A DNA stretch of 36,067 bases. It comes from a virus. Taxonomy: Duplodnaviria; Heunggongvirae; Uroviricota; Caudoviricetes. The notes below the pieces were generated by a model. It was given only the letters and a program-made list of their open reading frames with translations, was not told where the DNA came from and did not search any database. The stretch is from IMG/VR virus record IMGVR_UViG_2563366915_000004; one strand, written 5' to 3'. Shown piece by piece: positions 1,764 to 21,557 of this stretch; positions within the stretch are counted from its first letter, which is position 1; each line of letters starts with the position of its first letter. The translations under genes were made by a program, and so were the position numbers.

Positions 1764-4700
1764 TACCGATATGCTCCACTTAACCGACCACCATCACGGG
1801 CCTGCTGTTGCATAAAGTCCGCTGCCGCTTTTTTCCCGAGGTCATAAACCGCCTTCAGGGCAGCCGGACCTATCTGCCCGTTCGTGCCATCGTTATTGAT
1901 CTCGATGTTGTACTGCGGGGAAAACATCGCCATACCTGAACCCCCAATATCCGCCACAACCCCCAGCTTACCGTCAGCACCACGACGCAATGGCAGAATG
2001 GCTTCAGGTCCCGCTTCCCCCATCACACCCGCGCCTTTTGCAAAAGCAAAAAACGTCGGACGGTTAACCACCGTGCCACTGTAACGACTCAAATCAGCAG
2101 ACTGATAAATCCCCCCATTGGCATTCAGGGAAAGGCTGCTGAGATCAAATCCCAGCACACTGCCAATCCCTTTTATCGATTTCATCATGGTTGCCTGCGC
2201 CAGGATTTTCGCCATATCTGACAGCACAGAAGAGGTGAAGGATTTGAAATTGAGTTTGCCGGTAGTGACAAAAGTTGCCAGGCCATTTCCCATGTTGCTG
2301 AAGGCTGACGAGAACACCTGTTCTGCTGTTCCTGCCGTATTATCTGCATCCACGGTAAAATCCTGAAATGCACGCAGGACTCCGTTTTTCCAGTTACCCT
2401 GCACAACTTCAAGCTGTTGCCAGTAACGGCGATTCTCATTCAGTTGTCGGTTCAGGCTCTCCGTCAGCGCCTGCTCGGCCTTTCTGTAGTCATCCGTGTT
2501 ATATGTTCCTTTCTGCTCACTATCCCGCCTCAACTGCTCCAGCTGTTGCTGGTATTTCTGGCGAAGACTCAGTTGTACCTGATATCGCTGCCGCTGCTGA
2601 TCACCCATACCCACCGTGGCGATATCCAGGTCATGTTGCTGACGCTGAGCGCGCTCTTCTTCAGCCAGTTGACTGGTCAGCTGAATTGTTTTTTTCTTCA
2701 GCTCGTTGAGTGCCGTCTGTTTCTGAAGCTCCTGCTGTTTTACATCCAGCAGCGTCAGTGCCTGAATCAGTTCATCTTTACGGGCCAGCACACTCTTTTC
2801 ATCTGCCGTCAGTTTTTTCCCGTCCAGGTCGCTGATGCGCTGCTGCAGAGCCAGAAGCTGTTTATGCGCTTCTGTCATCCTTTCCGTGGCAATGCCTGCT
2901 GACTGTCTGGCAGCAGCAATCTGTCCTTCCACCTGTGCCTGTTGCTGACTGTACTGCAGCAATAACCGGGTGGCCTCATCATTACGGGGTTCGCGTGTTT
3001 TTTTCTTACCGGATGCCAGGGCTTTCTCGTAACGTTCATTTTCACGTTGTATCGCTGCATCCCTGACAGCCTGATCGGCGTACTGCATGGAATTAATACG
3101 CGCAATTTCACGCTGATGTCGTGCTGCTTCCGTTTCATTCATCCGGTTCAGTGCAGCATTTTCAGCATTACGTCGTTTCTGTTGCTCCTGATAATTCCGC
3201 TCTGCCTGCTCTTTTGCATCCTGCAAATCCTTCTGGCGTTTTTTCTCCTGAAGATCGTTAAGACGCTGCTGATCGTATTCAACCTGAGAAGATGATGCCG
3301 TCCAGGGGAGTCTTTTCGCCCGCGACACTTTCTCCTGTAAAGCGGCAATCTGTTCATCCAGCGAGTCTTCACGACCAATATTCATGGCCGCATCCCAGAA
3401 ACGACTCCACAAATCAGACAGATACTTCAGCGTACTGCCAAGCGCATTGAGGTTATTATCAATATCCGCAGTACGCCGACCGGTTTCCTCTGCCAGTGCA
3501 GACATGGCTATCCGTGCAGCATCACTGGACCGTCCCTGATCCCCAAGGACACGTATCTGCTCAAGCTGAGTGGCAGTAAGAAAATGCAGCTCATTGTCCA
3601 GAGCCTTCGCGGCATTTACAGGATCATCCTTCAGCCGCTTAAACTGATTTATGGTATCGCTGACCGACTGGCCAACCGATCGCTCCATCTGTGCGGCAGC
3701 TCTCGCCACCATACCGATATCGTTTCCACGAAATGCACCACTCCCCACCACCTGAGCCAGCGCACCGGCTGCAGCATGTTGCGTGATACCATTCCCGGAA
3801 ATAGCACGACTGAGCGTCCACAGCTGCCCGGCAGTGACTCCGGCATAATGCCCCGTCAGCGACAACTGGCGGTTAAATTCTTCCCCCTCCTTCTGACCGT
3901 CATACCAGGCTTTACCCAGACCATAGACGGACGCGGCAATACCGCCAATAACCCCGCCAAGCATCATGCCTTTCGGTGACATCAGAGTGTCTATCCATCC
4001 GGCACGGTTAGCCAGCGTTATCCCGGATCCCCTCAGCGCCCCTAAATTGCCGCGGGCCAGTTCACCTATCAGAACGCCAATCTCCTGGCGGGCCGCTGCA
4101 CTTTTCAGACCCAGCGAATGCGTGGCTTTTCCTGCCTGCTCCATTTTGCGGATATACACTTCTGCAGCACTGCTTACCCCCAGCTGGGCAGCCTTAGCAC
4201 GAAGCAACTCAGAAGAAGAAAGATTCTGGCGGGTTGCCTGCTCTTTAAGCTGACGGATAAACGCCACTTTCTGTCGGGTAGCCTCTTCCTCAGCCTGCGT
4301 AAGAACACGGGTTTTCGCCGTAACCTCAGAAATCAGCGCCAGATAATCCTGCTGACCAATCCCGCCACTGTTTCTGGCCTGTCGGATCTGCTGCTGAATA
4401 CGCTGTAATTCCTGCAGCCCCGCACTGGCCTGTTTCACACTGTCAATCTGACGATAAAACGCGGCAGCCGCTTTATCCTGAGCCTCCGCCAGAGCCATGG
4501 CCTGCGCCTGTTCCTCGCGCATTTTCTGGCTCAGTGCCTCCATACGCTGGCGGGTTTGCTCCACCTCGCGGGCCATGCGTTCATGAGCCTGTGCGCTCTT
4601 CTCCACCGTCTGCGCATGGACGGATGCGGCTGTTGCAGCCGAAGAAGCCGCCTGCATTGTCTGCCGGGCGGCCTGAGTCTGACGCTCCATAAAACGCTGC

Positions 4701-4828
4701 ATACGGGCAGAAGACCGTTCTGCATCGCTGGCTGCACCATTCAGAAGGTTTTTGATACGGGGAATTTCATTTTTAAACTCTGCCGCATCAATCCCCAAAT
4801 CAATGACCAGGTTGGCTATCTGGTCCAT
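1763..4828 (-). CDS. tail tape measure protein (lambda H-like)
   Basis: Long ORF (track 1763..4858); start moved to internal Met MDQIANLVIDLGIDAAEF, which aligns with the lambda H N-terminus and is preceded by a GGAGGTG RBS. Coiled-coil-rich Q/A/E/R middle region; C-terminus ...NNDGTNGQIGPAALKAVYDLGKKAA resembles lambda H. About 1021 aa, longer than lambda H. Confidence 0.88.
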   Translation of the reverse strand: MDQIANLVIDLGIDAAEFKNEIPRIKNLLNGAASDAERSSARMQRFMERQTQAARQTMQAASSAATAASVHAQTVEKSAQAHERMAREVEQTRQRMEALSQKMREEQAQAMALAEAQDKAAAAFYRQIDSVKQASAGLQELQRIQQQIRQARNSGGIGQQDYLALISEVTAKTRVLTQAEEEATRQKVAFIRQLKEQATRQNLSSSELLRAKAAQLGVSSAAEVYIRKMEQAGKATHSLGLKSAAARQEIGVLIGELARGNLGALRGSGITLANRAGWIDTLMSPKGMMLGGVIGGIAASVYGLGKAWYDGQKEGEEFNRQLSLTGHYAGVTAGQLWTLSRAISGNGITQHAAAGALAQVVGSGAFRGNDIGMVARAAAQMERSVGQSVSDTINQFKRLKDDPVNAAKALDNELHFLTATQLEQIRVLGDQGRSSDAARIAMSALAEETGRRTADIDNNLNALGSTLKYLSDLWSRFWDAAMNIGREDSLDEQIAALQEKVSRAKRLPWTASSSQVEYDQQRLNDLQEKKRQKDLQDAKEQAERNYQEQQKRRNAENAALNRMNETEAARHQREIARINSMQYADQAVRDAAIQRENERYEKALASGKKKTREPRNDEATRLLLQYSQQQAQVEGQIAAARQSAGIATERMTEAHKQLLALQQRISDLDGKKLTADEKSVLARKDELIQALTLLDVKQQELQKQTALNELKKKTIQLTSQLAEEERAQRQQHDLDIATVGMGDQQRQRYQVQLSLRQKYQQQLEQLRRDSEQKGTYNTDDYRKAEQALTESLNRQLNENRRYWQQLEVVQGNWKNGVLRAFQDFTVDADNTAGTAEQVFSSAFSNMGNGLATFVTTGKLNFKSFTSSVLSDMAKILAQATMMKSIKGIGSVLGFDLSSLSLNANGGIYQSADLSRYSGTVVNRPTFFAFAKGAGVMGEAGPEAILPLRRGADGKLGVVADIGGSGMAMFSPQYNIEINNDGTNGQIGPAALKAVYDLGKKAAADFMQQQARDGGRLSGAYR

Positions 4829-5527
4829 AACGCACACCTCCGGAAATACCTTCCCCAAGATGCATCAGTTCTTCGTCCGTTCGCTCCGGTATCCCGTTCT
4901 CTTCCGGTAAAAGGCTGAAATCAGCCACCGCAGCATCACTGCTACCGGACACCATTCTCACGATCAATGCCTTCAGCGAGGCAAACTGCGCATCCATCCA
5001 CACATCACTGAAGCTCTGCATCCGGAAATAATCGCCCCACTCACCAAGCTCAGTGGCCGACATTTCCGACAGCATCCGCCGCCAGTCTGCCCGCCGGAAC
5101 TCCCGGGCAAGCCGCATGACAAACTGCATTTCCCGCGTCAGGACTTTTCCGGCGTCAGCACCTCATGCTCCAAATCCCCGGCATTCTCAATGACTCCCAT
5201 ACCGCTCAGCGACAGAACCATCTCCGCCCCCGCTCCCAGGGCATCATACGACCATGTTGTAATAACGGATGCGCAAAGCGTCTCAACATCCTGAGACTGT
5301 TCCGCATTCCACAGTGAGCGGGAAACCAGCCAGGCATTGATATCCATCCCCATCCGCAGAAAAGCAATCTGTCGTTCAGCCTCCGGCAGTTCTCCCTCTT
5401 CGGCATCAAACTTTGCCGTTCGCTGCTGAACAAACGCCAGATATTCAATTCTCTGCAGCCCGGACAGCTCACTGAGCACCACGGACTGCTTTTCATAATT
5501 AAACGTGCCCTGTTTCAGAAACATCAT
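4800..5527 (-). CDS. tail assembly chaperone G-T fusion, made by programmed -1 ribosomal frameshift near the end of G (about 5144-5152)
   Basis: ORF 4800..5129 is in the -1 frame relative to G and has no RBS of its own; reading from the last G codons (CCG GAA AAG TCC TGA) in the -1 frame gives V-L-T-R-E-MQFVMRLAREF..., continuous with the T ORF. Position between V and H matches the conserved G/GT arrangement. Confidence 0.7.
5138..5527 (-). CDS. tail assembly chaperone G
   Basis: ORF track 5138..5566; start placed at the internal ATG ATG (MMFLKQGTFNYEKQ...) preceded by GGTGGAG, because the upstream part of the track ORF overlaps a terminator-like hairpin. Acidic C-terminus typical of gpG. 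Confidence 0.75.
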   Translation of the reverse strand: MMFLKQGTFNYEKQSVVLSELSGLQRIEYLAFVQQRTAKFDAEEGELPEAERQIAFLRMGMDINAWLVSRSLWNAEQSQDVETLCASVITTWSYDALGAGAEMVLSLSGMGVIENAGDLEHEVLTPEKS

Positions 5528-5540
5528 GTTCTCCACCTGC

Positions 5541-5564
5541 AAAAAAGCCCCGGATAACCGGGGC
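5541..5564 (-). terminator. intrinsic terminator or attenuator between major tail gene V and G
   Basis: Perfect inverted repeat GCCCCGG-ttat-CCGGGGC followed on the minus strand by TTTTTTG, located between the V stop (5585) and the G RBS. Confidence 0.5.
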
Positions 5565-5584
5565 AAATGATGAGTATCGTCCTG

Positions 5585-6328
5585 TTAACCTGCGGCGCTG
5601 ACAGCCACCGCAGCCACTGCCACAAAATCGCCGTCAGAAGTCATGCCCACAATGCTGACACTGCCCTGCTTCACGCCTTTCACCGTGGCCACAAGCCCGT
5701 TCAGGGTCACCGTGGCAGTCTGTGGATCTGTCGAATGCACACTGATCGCTTTGTCACTGGCTCCGTCAGGTTTTACTGTAAAGGTCAGCGTGGTGGTTGC
5801 TCCCACTTTTACACTGGCAGATGCCGGTGCCACCGTCAGCCCGGTAACGCTCACTGTTTCAGTGCCTTCCTCTGCCAGATACGGACGCCCCACACCGCTG
5901 ATTTTCACTGTGCGGGTCATCACGTCTTTTGAGGCAATGGTTTTACCCAGTGAGCTCAGCCAGCCACGGAAAACATCAACAGTGCCGTTGGGATATTTGA
6001 TACGAAACGCGCAGACTTCACCGGAGTCGAACAACTGAACCAGTTTTTTCTGCCCGCTGTCACCCGGACGCCAGGCCAGCGTCGCCGAAGTATCACCGAC
6101 GGATTTCTGCCCCTGGGTTGTCGTTTTCCAGTCTGCATCTTCATCATCGAGATAAGTGTCATCTTCTGCATCAGCGGTCATTTCGCCAGGTTGCAGATCC
6201 TTCACCATCGCAAGACGCAGCCAGTCAGTGTCCGATAAAGGGTTCGCAAACGCATCGCCCTTGCCGGTGTACATCCAGAACGTCGTTCCCGCACCTTTCG
6301 TTTTTGCCAGTGGATTTGGTGTGGTCAT
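5585..6328 (-). CDS. major tail protein V (with C-terminal Ig-like domain)
   Basis: ORF track start is GTG; moved to the internal ATG (MTTPNPLAKTKGAGTTFW...) preceded by AAAGGAGGTG. Sequence resembles lambda gpV (KGAGTT...ANPLSD...YLDDEDADW...NGTVDVFRGW) with a Big_2-like C-terminal region. Confidence 0.9.
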   Translation of the reverse strand: MTTPNPLAKTKGAGTTFWMYTGKGDAFANPLSDTDWLRLAMVKDLQPGEMTADAEDDTYLDDEDADWKTTTQGQKSVGDTSATLAWRPGDSGQKKLVQLFDSGEVCAFRIKYPNGTVDVFRGWLSSLGKTIASKDVMTRTVKISGVGRPYLAEEGTETVSVTGLTVAPASASVKVGATTTLTFTVKPDGASDKAISVHSTDPQTATVTLNGLVATVKGVKQGSVSIVGMTSDGDFVAVAAVAVSAAG

Positions 6329-7919: not shown

Positions 7920-7932
7920 AACTGTCTCCGCA

Positions 7933-7981
7933 CAGCCCCGTTCAGGGGCTGATTTCAGGTACAAAAAAAGCCCTTACGGGC
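7933..7981 (-). terminator. two stem-loops, one with a U7 tract, immediately downstream of the capsid gene (putative partial terminator)
   Basis: Minus strand: GCCC-gtaa-GGGC followed by TTTTTTT (about 7963-7981), then a stronger hairpin CAGCCCC-tgaac-GGGGCTG (about 7933-7951) just before the RBS of the next gene. Confidence 0.4.
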
Positions 7982-8005
7982 CATCAGAGTTGTTGTCTGC
8001 GACGT

Positions 8006-9964
8006 TTACGCCGTACATTTCACCAGACCGCGGTGATCAACTGGCGCGACACCGGCGTCAATACGCACTTTCGTTGTCACGCCATCCACACTGAAGCCCT
8101 CCATCTGATCAATATATGGCGTATCCACACCGTTGAGATAAGCCACTTCAATCGTATCGGAGCCTTTTGACGCAGCCAGGTAGAAGGTGGTCTGGCTGTT
8201 ATCATCAAGACGAGGCTCTGCAATAACGGTCGCAAAATCTTTCACCGGGTTAATAATACCGGCGTTAATGTCAGCCCCCTTGACACTTGAGGAGCGAATG
8301 ACCTGGTTAGCAACAGACTCCATCGCCGTCGGTACCAGTACGAACGCAGGACGAATATTCAGATGACGCTCCCCCTCTTTCTGAACGCGCATCAACTGGC
8401 GGGCTTTATCCAGCGATGCCACGTCCATTGCAGCGCTCTCCAGTACGTTTGCATGTTTCGCTTTATCGAACAGACTTACATTATCTGTGGAGATTTTCGG
8501 GTTAGACGTCAGAATGGCATAAACCAGATCGGCAATAGTGGATTTCGCCGCACGGCCCAGTTTCATCGGGACATCGGTCAGCATATTCAGATCATCATTG
8601 ATAATGGCCTGACGGGTGATACTGAACAGCTCGCCATAGGTCGCCAGTGCAATAGTGGCCTGTTTATCTCCGGTGGTGACGTATTTATATTCCGCCCCTT
8701 CACGCACCTGACGTAGAGCACTGAAGCCCCCCATACCCACACGATGGGCAATTTTAAAATCAGACAACTGACCTTTCCGCGTCCACTGTTCATAGGTTTC
8801 AGGGGCATCTTCCCAGCCCTGCAGAATGGCTTTGTTCGCAACATCCAGCAGAATATTACCGAAGTCAGACGTACTGTGTGTGAACGCCGCACCGACCATC
8901 TGCATCGGGTTATAACCGGAAACCCCAATACCCCGTTCAGTTAGTGACATACGGGCATATTCACGCAGGGTCATCCCGTTGTAGACATTATCACGTTCGG
9001 TTTTTTCAAATCCGGCACGCGCCATCAGCGCCTGGCGAATCCCGTCCCCCACAAAATTACCGTTACCGGCATAAATATGAGCCGGGGTATTTTTATTGGA
9101 TGGCGTGGACTCGCGCCCCATCTCGTTCAACAGCTTTTCACGGGCCTGCTCCAGCGAACATTCAGGATCGGCAAGACACTGGGCCTGCAGCGTCTGATAA
9201 CGCCCGCCAAACATGGCAAACAGATCATTAATACCGTTTACACGCGCTTTTTGCTCTGCCAGTACCTGCGCACGGATACTGTTTTCATCCACCACGGGTG
9301 CTGCTGCCTGCACTGGCGTCCGGGAGGCTGCAGGTTCATCATCCTGTACGCGTGGAGCACTGTTGCGTGGCGGAGTAATCATGTTTCGAATGGATTCCGG
9401 CATCTTTTTAAATTCCTCTGTACGTTTTGACTGAATACATGCCATTGCCTTAACGGCTGGTGTCACCTGATCAGCAAATCCCTGTGCCAGACATTCGGCA
9501 CCGGACATCCAGGTCTCATCCGCCAGCATGGCAGCAATTTCATCGGTGGTTTTCCCGGTTTTCTGTGCATAAGCGGGTAACAGAACCGCCTCAACTTTAT
9601 CGAGCAGGTCGGCATAGGTGCGCATGTCCTCCGCATCACCGCCCGTAAAGCCAAATGGTTTATGAATCATCATGAAGGAGTTTTCCGGCATAATGACCGG
9701 GTTTCCCACCATCGCAATGACCGACGCCATTGACGCCGCCACACCGTCGACATAAACGGTAATGGACGCACCATGTGTTTTCAGTGCATTAAAAATGGCG
9801 ATGCCTTCAAAGACATCGCCACCCGGTGAATTAATATGGAGATTAATGTGGGTGATATCGCCCAGTGCATTCAGATCACTGATAAACTGCTTCGCTGTAA
9901 CACCCCAGAAACCAATCTCGTCATAAATATAAATATCCGCGTCACTCTGGTGACCTGCCTGCAT
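8006..9964 (-). CDS. prohead protease (ClpP/S14-like) fused to major capsid protein
   Basis: Track ORF 8006..10225 overlaps the portal; start moved to internal Met MQAGHQSDADIYIYDEIGFWGV just after the portal stop. N-terminal part has ClpP-like motifs (INSPGGDV, GVAASMASVIAMVG); the C-terminal roughly 400 aa looks like an HK97-fold capsid protein; a single ORF of about 652 aa. Confidence 0.8.
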   Translation of the reverse strand: MQAGHQSDADIYIYDEIGFWGVTAKQFISDLNALGDITHINLHINSPGGDVFEGIAIFNALKTHGASITVYVDGVAASMASVIAMVGNPVIMPENSFMMIHKPFGFTGGDAEDMRTYADLLDKVEAVLLPAYAQKTGKTTDEIAAMLADETWMSGAECLAQGFADQVTPAVKAMACIQSKRTEEFKKMPESIRNMITPPRNSAPRVQDDEPAASRTPVQAAAPVVDENSIRAQVLAEQKARVNGINDLFAMFGGRYQTLQAQCLADPECSLEQAREKLLNEMGRESTPSNKNTPAHIYAGNGNFVGDGIRQALMARAGFEKTERDNVYNGMTLREYARMSLTERGIGVSGYNPMQMVGAAFTHSTSDFGNILLDVANKAILQGWEDAPETYEQWTRKGQLSDFKIAHRVGMGGFSALRQVREGAEYKYVTTGDKQATIALATYGELFSITRQAIINDDLNMLTDVPMKLGRAAKSTIADLVYAILTSNPKISTDNVSLFDKAKHANVLESAAMDVASLDKARQLMRVQKEGERHLNIRPAFVLVPTAMESVANQVIRSSSVKGADINAGIINPVKDFATVIAEPRLDDNSQTTFYLAASKGSDTIEVAYLNGVDTPYIDQMEGFSVDGVTTKVRIDAGVAPVDHRGLVKCTA

Positions 9965-19344: not shown

Positions 19345-19376
19345 GATAATAAAAAACCCGCCTGAGCGGGTTTGAG
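19345..19376. terminator. bidirectional intrinsic terminator
   Basis: AAAAAACCCGC-ctga-GCGGGTTT: stem flanked by an A-run upstream and T-run downstream; serves the zinc-ribbon gene (+) and the cspB transcript (-). Confidence 0.5.
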
Positions 19377-20804: not shown

Positions 20805-21557
20805 TTATCTCGTCACCTTCCTCAATTGCGCTTCCGCGTATGCTTCTTCCTGCCAGCACTTTGTTACCAGTTTATCAATGACGTCCGCATACCCCTTATA
20901 CCACTGATAATCGGTCAGGTCTGGTACCAGCTTCTGGACATGACGTCGTGCCAGCGTGGTCGGTAAACGACTAAATCGGTTTCCATTACAACGCCCACAA
21001 ATCTTATATACCGGTACGCCATGAAACCGGGTTCTTTTTTCATCCAGAACAATCCCTTTACCCTTACACCCTCTGCACGCTGTGCTGACTTCGCCCTTAC
21101 CATGGCAATGCTGACATAGTTCCTTCACCCATTCTTCCTTGATTACAGATTCCCCGCGTCTGTAGTGTTTCACCACTTCGCGCAATACATTATAAAATCC
21201 CGTACCTGAACAATGCTCACAGCGAGCCTTACTTGCCGCAGACCTGGAGTAATCAGCAAAGGCAAAATTCACAAGGTAAGGAATAATCTGTAACCGGATT
21301 TCTTCACTCAATTTGTTCAATGTCGGGTTATCCAGTGCCATCGCGTAATTTAGCAGGCCTTCAATCGCAAACTGAGGGTCCTGAACACCAACTTTTGCCA
21401 GAAATAAGGCCAACCCAAGTGGTGCTTTCGACTGCACCATCCCCTGCGCTGCCATTACATCCGTAATTGTTAAACAACCGGTGCCTGTCGCTGGAGCGTC
21501 ATCGCTCAATTTTGGAGATTTTGGGGAGTAATATTTTGGTAAGGCTTCAAGGTTCAT
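20805..21557 (-). CDS. late-gene antitermination protein Q (phage 82 / QuuQ-type)
   Basis: 250-aa ORF with Cys-rich zinc-binding region (CEHCSGTG...CQHCHGKGE...CRGCKGKG...CGRCNGN) typical of 82-type Q; lies upstream of the lysis cassette. Confidence 0.88.
   Translation of the reverse strand: MNLEALPKYYSPKSPKLSDDAPATGTGCLTITDVMAAQGMVQSKAPLGLALFLAKVGVQDPQFAIEGLLNYAMALDNPTLNKLSEEIRLQIIPYLVNFAFADYSRSAASKARCEHCSGTGFYNVLREVVKHYRRGESVIKEEWVKELCQHCHGKGEVSTACRGCKGKGIVLDEKRTRFHGVPVYKICGRCNGNRFSRLPTTLARRHVQKLVPDLTDYQWYKGYADVIDKLVTKCWQEEAYAEAQLRKVTR

What the first reader, a model, noticed from the sequence alone, without database searches (positions are those of the whole stretch)
4800..5566. G/G-T tail chaperone pair with a -1 frameshift at a non-canonical slippery sequence, preceded by a terminator-like hairpin
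The T frame is -1 relative to G and lacks its own start context, so a G-T fusion by programmed frameshift is expected, but the sequence at the end of G (CCGGAAAAGTCC) does not match the lambda G GGA AAG heptamer exactly. Separately, a perfect hairpin plus U6 lies between V and G, suggesting attenuation between the major tail protein and downstream genes.
Basis: partly seen in the sequence, partly recalled or inferred. Interest (0 to 1): 0.4.

Follow-up and report, generated by a model that had tools for sequence, protein, structure and literature searches.

The report
Ordinary lambdoid G/GT tail-chaperone frameshift
This is the standard tail-assembly chaperone gene pair of a very common E. coli lambda-like prophage, with a ribosome-slip sequence (GGAAAAG) and a hairpin after the major tail gene that are both already annotated in related phages, so it is ordinary.

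Summary
V ends at 5585. A perfect 7-bp G+C hairpin plus T6 lies at 5564-5541. G runs 5527-5138. The T frame is -1 to G and is open for only 25 nt before the G stop. The only slip-prone sequence in that overlap is G_GAA_AAG (5150-5144).

The region is 97-99.7% identical to phages Ayreon, mEp460 and cdtI. It occurs in 1849 of 5426 complete E. coli genomes.

GGAAAAG is not an oddity. It sits at the homologous position in 21 of 29 divergent G/T pairs and in all 66 distinct G proteins of a second sample. Lambda's GGGAAAG is the minority form. The N15 GenBank record labels GGAAAAG "slippery sequence for -1 translational frameshift" and marks a stem-loop between its V and G homologues as a putative terminator.

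The first G of the heptamer is kept across five different codons. This suggests that P-site tRNA-Glu re-pairing (GAA to GGA) matters, although an in vitro study used this same sequence as its poorly slippery control.

I found no conserved stimulatory structure or SD-like element. The hairpin is a credible intrinsic terminator, but a Q antiterminator gene is present, so attenuation is unproven.

Verdict: already known, low interest.

The parts
5585..6328 (-). Major tail tube protein gene (V homologue), 247 aa, stop TAA 5587-5585
   Evidence: Pfam Phage_TTP_12 E 6e-67 plus Big_2. 99% identical to mEp460 V.
5541..5564 (-). Terminator-like element between V and G: stem GCCCCGG (5564-5558), loop TTAT, stem CCGGGGC (5553-5547), then T6 (5546-5541)
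   Evidence: Sequence. Fold -16.2 kcal/mol, z -2.25. Top hit of the terminator scan. Annotated as a rho-independent terminator in mEp460 and Ayreon.
5531..5537 (-). Shine-Dalgarno GGTGGAG for G
   Evidence: Sequence. Spacing is 3 nt to ATG 5527 and 6 nt to ATG 5524. Homologues begin MFLK, which favours 5524.
5138..5527 (-). Tail assembly chaperone G (129 aa from ATG 5527; 128 aa from ATG 5524), stop TGA 5140-5138
   Evidence: Pfam Phage_TAC_2 E 7e-40. phrog_42 E 2e-51. 33% identical to lambda G.
5163..5165 (-). TGA stop in the -1 (T) frame. It sets the upstream limit of the 25-nt window in which a productive -1 shift can occur.
   Evidence: Translation of the T frame.
5144..5150 (-). Slip heptamer G_GAA_AAG (zero-frame codons GAA 5149-5147 and AAG 5146-5144). 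After the shift the ribosome reads GTC at 5144-5142.
   Evidence: Sequence. Same heptamer at the homologous position in 21/29 and 66/66 relatives. Annotated as the slippery sequence in N15.
4800..5144 (-). T part of the GT fusion: 114 codons read in the -1 frame from GTC 5144 to CAT 4805-4803, stop TGA 4802-4800
   Evidence: Pfam Phage_tail_T E 5e-15. phrog_39 E 8e-43. 38% identical to lambda T.
4800..5527 (-). Predicted GT fusion product: 128 + 114 = 242 aa (241 aa from the second ATG), with junction ...VLTPEK|VLTREMQF...
   Evidence: Single ungapped-at-junction BLASTP alignment with lambda GT (E 8e-43) and N15 GT (E 1e-37). G and T map to positions 1-112 and 136-252 of the fused family phrog_32165.
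5127..5129 (-). ATG used by database annotators as an independent T start (rival reading)
   Evidence: mEp460 and RefSeq annotation. No spaced SD (sequence). Not conserved in Gifsy-2, phi80 or N15.
1766..4828 (-). Tape measure protein gene (H homologue). Its ATG at 4828-4826 overlaps the end of T.
   Evidence: 98% identical to mEp460 H. Annotation.
20808..21557 (-). Q-type late antiterminator gene (context for reading the hairpin)
   Evidence: 95% identical to the mEp460 late gene regulator. Pfam Antiterm E 8e-55.

Best explanation
This is the tail-assembly chaperone pair of an mEp460/cdtI/Ayreon-type lambdoid prophage.

How the frameshift most likely works:
- Most ribosomes translate G (5527/5524-5138) and stop at TGA 5140-5138.
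- A small fraction slip back one base on G_GAA_AAG (5150-5144). At that moment GAA (tRNA-Glu) is in the P site and AAG (tRNA-Lys) is in the A site.
- tRNA-Lys re-pairs perfectly with AAA.
- tRNA-Glu re-pairs with GGA through Watson-Crick pairs at codon positions 1 and 3 and a G.U pair at position 2.
- Translation continues in the T frame from GTC 5144 to the stop at 4802-4800. The product is a 242-aa GT fusion.
- By analogy with lambda, the G part of GT would bind the tape measure protein and the T part would bind the tail tube protein.

What is shown here: gene identities and order; the -1 geometry with a 25-nt overlap; family-wide conservation of the heptamer, including its first G; colinearity of the conceptual fusion with lambda GT; and the absence of a conserved downstream structure or SD-like stimulator.

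What is inferred: that the shift happens, its rate, and that both tRNAs re-pair.

The hairpin plus U6 after V (5564-5541) has the anatomy of an intrinsic terminator. The late operon is served by a Q antiterminator. My best guess (inference) is therefore that late transcription mostly reads through it. In that case it would act as a weak attenuator and/or as a 3' hairpin that stabilises processed V mRNA. Either effect would favour the abundant tail tube protein over the genes downstream.
For: - Pfam: V Phage_TTP_12 E 6e-67, G Phage_TAC_2 E 7e-40, T Phage_tail_T E 5e-15. PHROGs, including the fused family phrog_32165 that covers G and T colinearly.
- The T frame opens only 25 nt before the G stop, and the only Z_ZZN or heptamer motif there is G_GAA_AAG.
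- The conceptual GT aligns in a single alignment through the junction with lambda GT (E 8e-43) and N15 GT (E 1e-37). This includes the residues VLTRE upstream of the annotated T ATG.
- Heptamer survey of 29 divergent G/T pairs: GGAAAAG 21, GGGAAAG 7, AAAAAAG 1. Position 1 is G even though it sits in CCG, GCG, CTG, ACG or GTG. Neighbouring third positions vary. The one lineage with A at position 1 has A at positions 1-3.
- Second sample: 80 loci, 66 distinct G proteins, 27 flank contexts, all GGAAAAG.
- The N15 record annotates GGAAAAG as the 'slippery sequence for -1 translational frameshift'. Gifsy-2 annotates a G+G' frameshift hybrid.
- Literature: A_AAG is the most shift-prone tetramer in E. 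coli (PMC4066793). NNA_AAG sites are used productively, for example by IS1222 (PMC5009743). Lambda shifts about 4% of the time and the G:GT ratio matters (PMC3296357; PMC5009743).
- Hairpin: annotated. G+C hairpins recur in 36 of 66 distinct V-G junctions. Q gene.
Against: - There is no direct evidence of a GT protein for this phage or, as far as I could find, for any GGAAAAG phage.
- In a reconstituted E. coli system AUG_GAA_AAG gave mainly zero-frame product. It was used as the 'unfavourable' control because of the second-position mismatch (PMC6924986).
- I found no stimulatory element. Downstream folding z is -0.8 for the window and averages -0.24 over 34 relatives. The SD-like GAGGTG 8 nt upstream is not conserved, and 20% of windows within G pair with the anti-SD at least as well.
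- Within the closely related clade, the lower diversity of the overlap (1 of 28 sites variable against 12% in the body of G) is not statistically significant.
- For the hairpin: many relatives, including lambda and phi80, have no V-G hairpin. Several of the hairpins that do occur lack a U tract. Termination, read-through and RNA stabilisation are all untested.
Confidence: 0.85

Rival explanations
1. T is made as a separate protein from its own ATG at 5129, as GenBank and RefSeq annotate it, and there is no frameshift.
For: An in-frame ATG exists, and the mEp460 and RefSeq records start a 109-aa T there.
Against: - There is no properly spaced SD; GGGAA abuts the ATG.
- The ATG is not conserved in Gifsy-2, phi80, N15 or mEp043. 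Their first Met lies well inside the conserved T domain.
- The residues encoded between the heptamer and the ATG (VLTRE) align with lambda GT (VFDGE).
- The heptamer and the -1 geometry are conserved family-wide.
- In lambda the T frame is expressed as the gpGT fusion by this frameshift (PMC5009743).
Confidence: 0.07
2. The shift is a single-tRNA event on the A_AAG tetramer only. tRNA-Glu in the P site does not re-pair, so the upstream 'G GA' is irrelevant.
For: - A_AAG alone is the best tetramer in E. coli.
- NNA_AAG motifs work with unrelated first codons, for example CGA_AAG.
Against: - Heptamer position 1 is G in every GGAAAAG and GGGAAAG lineage, across five different codons, while adjacent third positions vary.
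- The one exception changed positions 1-3 together to AAA.
- That pattern is expected if the P-site tRNA must re-pair at codon position 1.
- The lineages are phylogenetically related, and NNG codons are common in E. coli. The argument is therefore suggestive, not proof.
Confidence: 0.25
3. The frame change is made by RNA polymerase slippage on the A run, not by the ribosome.
For: There is a run of four A residues at the site.
Against: - Known transcriptional slippage needs much longer homopolymer runs, typically 7-9 or more (established knowledge, reviewed in PMC5009743).
- The conserved unit is the in-frame heptamer ending in G, in a fixed codon register. That fits tRNA re-pairing.
Confidence: 0.02
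4. The V-G hairpin is an efficient terminator that truly attenuates transcription into G, T, H and the distal tail genes.
For: It has a canonical intrinsic terminator anatomy: a 7-bp all-G-C stem, a 4-nt loop and U6. A second, similar site lies just after the capsid gene.
Against: - A Q antiterminator is encoded upstream.
- All essential distal tail genes (H, M, L, K, I, J) lie downstream on the same strand, so strong termination would be harmful.
- Relatives manage without the hairpin, or with hairpins that lack U tracts.
Confidence: 0.25

Closest known systems
Bacteriophage lambda G / G-T programmed -1 frameshift (Levin, Hendrix and Casjens 1993; reviewed in PMC5009743)
   Same: - Gene order V-G-T-H.
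- G and T belong to the same Pfam families (33% and 38% identity).
- T is in the -1 frame and overlaps the 3' end of G.
- The slip is at a Lys AAG codon near the end of G, and the fusion is colinear.
- No evident stimulatory structure.
   Different: - The heptamer is G_GAA_AAG, not G_GGA_AAG. The P-site tRNA is Glu rather than Gly, with a second-position G.U after the shift instead of a third-position one.
- The G stop is 1 codon after the heptamer (5 in lambda), and the overlap is 25 nt (64 in lambda).
- Lambda has a 15-nt V-G spacer with no hairpin.
Phage N15 genes 13-14-15 (GenBank NC_001901)
   Same: - The same heptamer, GGAAAAG, in the same codon register. The record annotates it as the 'slippery sequence for -1 translational frameshift'.
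- A G+C stem-loop between the major tail gene and the G homologue, annotated as a putative rho-independent terminator.
   Different: - Only about 35% protein identity.
- The N15 hairpin (CCGGGGC GCGA GCCCCG) has a different sequence and no U tract.
- The G stop is 5 codons after the heptamer.
Phages mEp460, cdtI, Ayreon and Gifsy-2
   Same: - mEp460, cdtI and Ayreon are 97-99.7% identical in DNA over the whole region, with the same heptamer and hairpin. The terminator is annotated in mEp460 and Ayreon.
- Gifsy-2 (55% identity in G) has the same CCG GAA AAG TCC TGA and is annotated as a G+G' frameshift hybrid.
   Different: None of substance for mEp460 and Ayreon. Those records list G and T as separate CDS without a ribosomal-slippage join.
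NNA_AAG / A_AAG low-level -1 shift sites (IS1222 G_CGA_AAG, Bacillus cdd A_CGA_AAG; PMC5009743) and dnaX A_AAA_AAG
   Same: tRNA-Lys slips from AAG to AAA in the A site, with imperfect or no cognate re-pairing of the P-site tRNA.
   Different: - Here position 1 is conserved in a way that suggests partial P-site re-pairing.
- There is no pseudoknot, hairpin or SD stimulator of the kind found in IS elements and dnaX.

Membership tests
Lambda-type G/GT tail assembly chaperone pair | Upstream ORF is a gpG-family chaperone | tested here: met
   Pfam Phage_TAC_2 E 7e-40 against a cutoff of 27 bits. phrog_42 E 2e-51.
Lambda-type G/GT tail assembly chaperone pair | Downstream ORF is a T-family domain in the -1 frame that overlaps the 3' end of G | tested here: met
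   Pfam Phage_tail_T E 5e-15. The -1 frame opens 25 nt before the G stop.
Lambda-type G/GT tail assembly chaperone pair | Located between the major tail tube gene and the tape measure gene | tested here: met
   V at 6328-5585 and H from 4828, both on the same strand.
Lambda-type G/GT tail assembly chaperone pair | A slip-prone sequence in the correct register inside the overlap, conserved in relatives | tested here: met
   G_GAA_AAG at 5150-5144. Same position and register in 21/29 and 66/66 relatives.
Lambda-type G/GT tail assembly chaperone pair | A GT fusion protein is actually made at a low fixed ratio and is needed for tail assembly | not testable with these tools
   This needs proteomics or reporter assays. 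Only colinearity of the conceptual fusion with lambda GT is shown.
Canonical X_XXY_YYZ tandem-slip heptamer | Positions 1-3 identical and positions 4-6 identical | tested here: not met
   G-G-A at positions 1-3, so position 3 breaks the rule. It fits the Z_ZZN tetramer A_AAG and the NNA_AAG class instead. It also appears to fit PRFect's 'twofour' motif class, judging from the motif's name, because its definition is in a supplementary figure I did not read.
Z_ZZN tetramer shift site (A_AAG) | A_AAG in the zero-frame register within the overlap | tested here: met
   A(5147) AAG(5146-5144), with AAG as a zero-frame codon.
Stimulated bacterial -1 PRF signal (dnaX / IS3 type) | Downstream hairpin or pseudoknot 5-9 nt from the site and/or an SD-like element 6-17 nt upstream, conserved in relatives | tested here: not met
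   Downstream fold z is -0.8, with a mean of -0.24 over 34 relatives. GAGGTG 8 nt upstream pairs at -6.9 kcal/mol; 20% of windows within G do as well, and it is absent from most relatives.
Rho-independent (intrinsic) terminator | G+C-rich stem-loop immediately followed by a U tract, on the transcribed strand, in an intergenic position | tested here: met
   7 G-C pairs, 4-nt loop and T6 at 5564-5541, between V and G on the minus strand.
Rho-independent (intrinsic) terminator | Transcripts actually end there | not testable with these tools
   No transcript data are available. A Q antiterminator is present, so read-through is expected in the late phase.

The most novel reading that the evidence does not exclude
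G_GAA_AAG is a selected two-tRNA slip heptamer. tRNA-Glu re-pairs to GGA through a second-position G.U pair. Both shifting tRNAs (Glu and Lys) carry the mnm5s2U34 modification. The site reaches a lambda-like rate of a few percent in vivo with no stimulator, although reconstituted translation treats the same sequence as essentially non-slippery. That would point to an in vivo determinant that current -1 frameshift rules miss. It would also make these very common prophages doubly sensitive to the host tRNA thiolation pathway.
Probability: 0.3. Interest if true: 0.4.

Novelty: already known. Interest (0 to 1): 0.2.

Why it matters
Its importance is mainly practical. This prophage module is present in about a third of complete E. 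coli genomes. Current GenBank and RefSeq records still list G and T as two separate genes, so the 242-aa GT fusion is usually missing from protein sets. Motif-based frameshift finders that accept only X_XXY_YYZ will miss it.

There is also a modest mechanistic point. Comparative data show that GGAAAAG, not lambda's GGGAAAG, is the commonest slip site in this chaperone family, with its first G conserved. A biochemical study chose the same sequence as its poorly slippery control. A simple reporter series would resolve that contrast.

The hairpins after the major capsid and major tail genes fit a familiar pattern of structural-gene punctuation. They do not change any picture.

Tried and rejected
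1. Downstream stimulatory RNA structure. The fold of 5150-5040 gives z -0.8. A 60-nt window after the heptamer in 34 relatives gives a mean z of -0.24. Rejected.
2. Upstream SD-like stimulator. GAGGTG (5164-5159) is 8 nt before the heptamer, but it is no stronger than 20% of windows in G and is absent from most relatives. Not supported.
3. A nearby zero-frame stop as a stimulator. The distance to the stop is 1 codon in some lineages and 5 in others. It is not a conserved feature.
4. A known RNA family at the hairpin or the slip site. Rfam gave nothing above noise.
5. Reduced polymorphism at the overlap within the near-identical clade. There is 1 variable site in 28, against 12% in the body of G. 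That is too few sites to be significant. The ends of that ungapped comparison are spoiled by indels.
6. Compensatory changes in the hairpin within the close clade. I saw only single changes, mostly at the loop-closing pair. Support for structure comes instead from different-sequence hairpins in other lineages.
7. Literature. Xu, Hendrix and Duda 2004 and Licznar et al. 2003 could not be read. What they say about GGAAAAG and GAA_AAG is therefore not cited. Two sequence-string searches were mostly noise.
8. I did not run the large protein-database searches or structure prediction. Family membership was already unambiguous.
Full report
**What is there.**
All the genes in the finding are on the minus strand.
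- The major tail tube gene V runs from ATG 6328 to TAA 5587-5585 (Pfam Phage_TTP_12, E 6e-67).
- After a 57-nt spacer comes G, from ATG 5527 or 5524 to TGA 5140-5138 (Phage_TAC_2, E 7e-40).
- The frame that encodes a Phage_tail_T domain (E 5e-15) is -1 relative to G. It is closed by TGA at 5165-5163 and open from 5162 to the stop at 4802-4800.
- The tape measure gene H starts at ATG 4828.
- G and T therefore share only 25 nt: GTG CTG ACG CCG GAA AAG TCC TGA. The only slip-prone sequence in it is G_GAA_AAG at 5150-5144.
- The V-G spacer holds a perfect hairpin, GCCCCGG-TTAT-CCGGGGC (5564-5547), followed by T6 (5546-5541). Its fold is -16.2 kcal/mol, and it is the best terminator-like site in the first 20 kb.

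The one qualification is that the T frame does contain an ATG (5129), which annotators use as a start.

**Where it comes from.**
The 1-kb region is 97-99.7% identical to phages Ayreon, mEp460, cdtI and relatives. The whole left arm of the window is colinear with mEp460, from the terminase genes to K, and the window also carries a Q homologue. The same 811 bases occur in 1849 of 5426 complete E. coli genomes, nearly all at 95% identity or more. This is one of the commonest prophage tail modules in E. coli.

**Is it a G/GT frameshift?**
The conceptual product reads G through Lys128, steps back one base and continues from GTC 5144. It is 242 aa long. It aligns in a single BLASTP alignment, with no gap at the junction, with lambda GT (E 8e-43) and N15 GT (E 1e-37). 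The junctions correspond as TPEK|VLTREMQF (window), SAGK|VFDGELSF (lambda) and TAEK|ALASELKF (N15). The residues between the heptamer and the annotated T ATG are part of that alignment. The ATG itself is missing in Gifsy-2, phi80, mEp043 and N15. G and T also map to positions 1-112 and 136-252 of one PHROG family of fused proteins (phrog_32165). Independent initiation of T is therefore unlikely.

**Is the heptamer unusual?**
It differs from lambda's G_GGA_AAG by one base and breaks the X_XXY_YYZ rule. It is nevertheless the norm for this family.
- I took 29 divergent G/T pairs from annotated phages and from one-genome-per-species bacterial contigs. The heptamer at the homologous position is GGAAAAG in 21. 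These come from Escherichia, Salmonella Gifsy-2, Klebsiella, Enterobacter, Xenorhabdus, Atlantibacter, Trabulsiella, Pluralibacter, Phytobacter, Buttiauxella, phi80 and N15.
- It is GGGAAAG in 7, forming two separate clades: lambda-like phages, and Serratia/Symbiopectobacterium.
- It is AAAAAAG in 1, VT1-Sakai.
- A second sample of 80 viral contigs (66 distinct G proteins, 27 distinct flanking contexts) was GGAAAAG throughout.
- The N15 GenBank record marks exactly GGAAAAG as the 'slippery sequence for -1 translational frameshift'. Gifsy-2 is annotated as a G+G' frameshift hybrid.

**Mechanism.**
Positions 4-7 (A_AAG) are invariant. A_AAG is the most shift-prone tetramer in E. coli (PMC4066793). 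NNA_AAG sites are used by IS1222 and occur in Bacillus cdd (PMC5009743).

Position 1 is G wherever positions 2-3 are GA or GG. This holds although it is the third base of five different codons (CCG, GCG, CTG, ACG, GTG), while the third bases of the preceding codons vary freely. The single lineage with A at position 1 has AAA at positions 1-3. The -1 frame is not translated upstream of the shift, so this conservation cannot be a T-frame coding constraint.

The pattern fits tandem slippage. tRNA-Lys moves from AAG to AAA. tRNA-Glu moves from GAA to GGA, keeping positions 1 and 3 and forming a G.U pair at position 2. PRFect's authors discuss the same GAA-to-GGA re-pairing (PMC10885494). This step is an inference. 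The lineages are related and NNG codons are common, so a tetramer-only slip remains possible.

A reconstituted E. coli system used AUG_GAA_AAG as its unfavourable control and saw mainly zero-frame product (PMC6924986). In vivo proteomics finds -1 shifting to be more permissive than the textbook rules (PMC10861913).

I found no stimulator:
- Downstream folding is unremarkable, both in the window (z -0.8) and across 34 relatives (mean z -0.24).
- The SD-like GAGGTG 8 nt upstream is neither exceptional nor conserved.
- The distance to the G stop differs between lineages.

The rate is unknown. Lambda's is about 4% (PMC3296357).

**The hairpin.**
It has textbook intrinsic-terminator anatomy, and the mEp460 and Ayreon records annotate it as a terminator. 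N15 carries an annotated stem-loop at the same junction.

Across 66 distinct V-G junctions, 36 have a strong G+C hairpin, usually with a GGGGC/GCCCC core and often with GNRA- or UNCG-like loops. The other 30, lambda and phi80 among them, mostly have a 10-15-nt spacer and no strong hairpin. Several of the hairpins lack a U tract. The stem sequences differ between lineages, and the window's stem is the strand-swapped form. What recurs is therefore a structure, not a sequence.

The window encodes a Q antiterminator (21557-20808, Pfam Antiterm E 8e-55). All essential distal tail genes lie downstream on the same strand. Strong termination during late transcription is therefore unlikely. Partial attenuation or stabilisation of V mRNA is the most reasonable reading, but nothing here tests it. 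A matching hairpin plus U7 follows the protease-capsid fusion gene (7982-7969), also annotated in mEp460.

**Verdict.**
- The frameshift interpretation is well supported by comparison but unproven biochemically.
- The 'non-canonical' label is technically right, but the sequence is the family's usual and already annotated slip site.
- The attenuation idea is plausible and untested.
- Nothing here is new in kind.

The one point worth a small experiment is why GGAAAAG, treated as poorly slippery in vitro, is the preferred G-T slip site, and whether its conserved first G reflects tRNA-Glu re-pairing.

Noticed in passing
window 7969-7982 (-), plus 7932-7950 (-): A second terminator-like hairpin, GGCCC-GUAA-GGGCU plus U7, lies just after the 652-aa ClpP-protease/capsid fusion gene (9964-8009). 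It is followed by another G+C hairpin (CAGCCCC-TGAA-CGGGGCTG) before the next gene (ATG 7919). The two most abundant structural genes, capsid and tail tube, are therefore each followed by such a hairpin. mEp460 annotates the first as a terminator.
   Followed up: partly
window 8009-9964 (-): The head gene is a single 652-aa ORF. It joins a Clp protease domain (residues 23-168) to a capsid domain (Phage_capsid_4, residues 357-649). The mEp460 record calls it only 'protease/scaffold protein'.
   Followed up: partly
window 19354-19373 (-): A strong terminator-like site, AAACCCGC-TCAG-GCGGGTTT plus a T-rich tail, lies between the Q gene (ends 20808) and the holin homologue (about 18934). It is a candidate for the tR'-type terminator on which Q acts. 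I did not examine it further.
   Followed up: no
window 5522-5527 (-): G has two adjacent ATG codons. The SD spacing (6 nt) and the MFLK start of all homologues favour the second (5524), as in RefSeq. The phage GenBank records use the first.
   Followed up: partly
window 4909-4926 (-): mEp460 annotates a second 'rho-independent terminator' inside the T coding region (GGCTGA-TT-TCAGCC plus TTTT). The loop is only 2 nt and the element lies inside an essential ORF, so it is probably a prediction artefact.
   Followed up: no
L113-L126 (genome-contig hits): A dozen hits from unrelated bacteria (Neobacillus, Pseudomonas, Kitasatospora, Shewanella, Paenibacillus and others) are identical to phage lambda in the sequence around the G stop that was compared. 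Many lie on short or very low-coverage contigs. They look like lambda DNA contamination of those assemblies rather than real prophages.
   Followed up: no
L099 and L101 (Symbiopectobacterium), V-G spacer: These relatives carry two consecutive hairpins in a 77-nt V-G spacer. The first has a U7 tract. They use GGGAAAG in a CCG GGA AAG TCT TAG context that otherwise mirrors the window's CCG GAA AAG TCC TGA. This shows that the two heptamers interconvert by one transition.
   Followed up: partly
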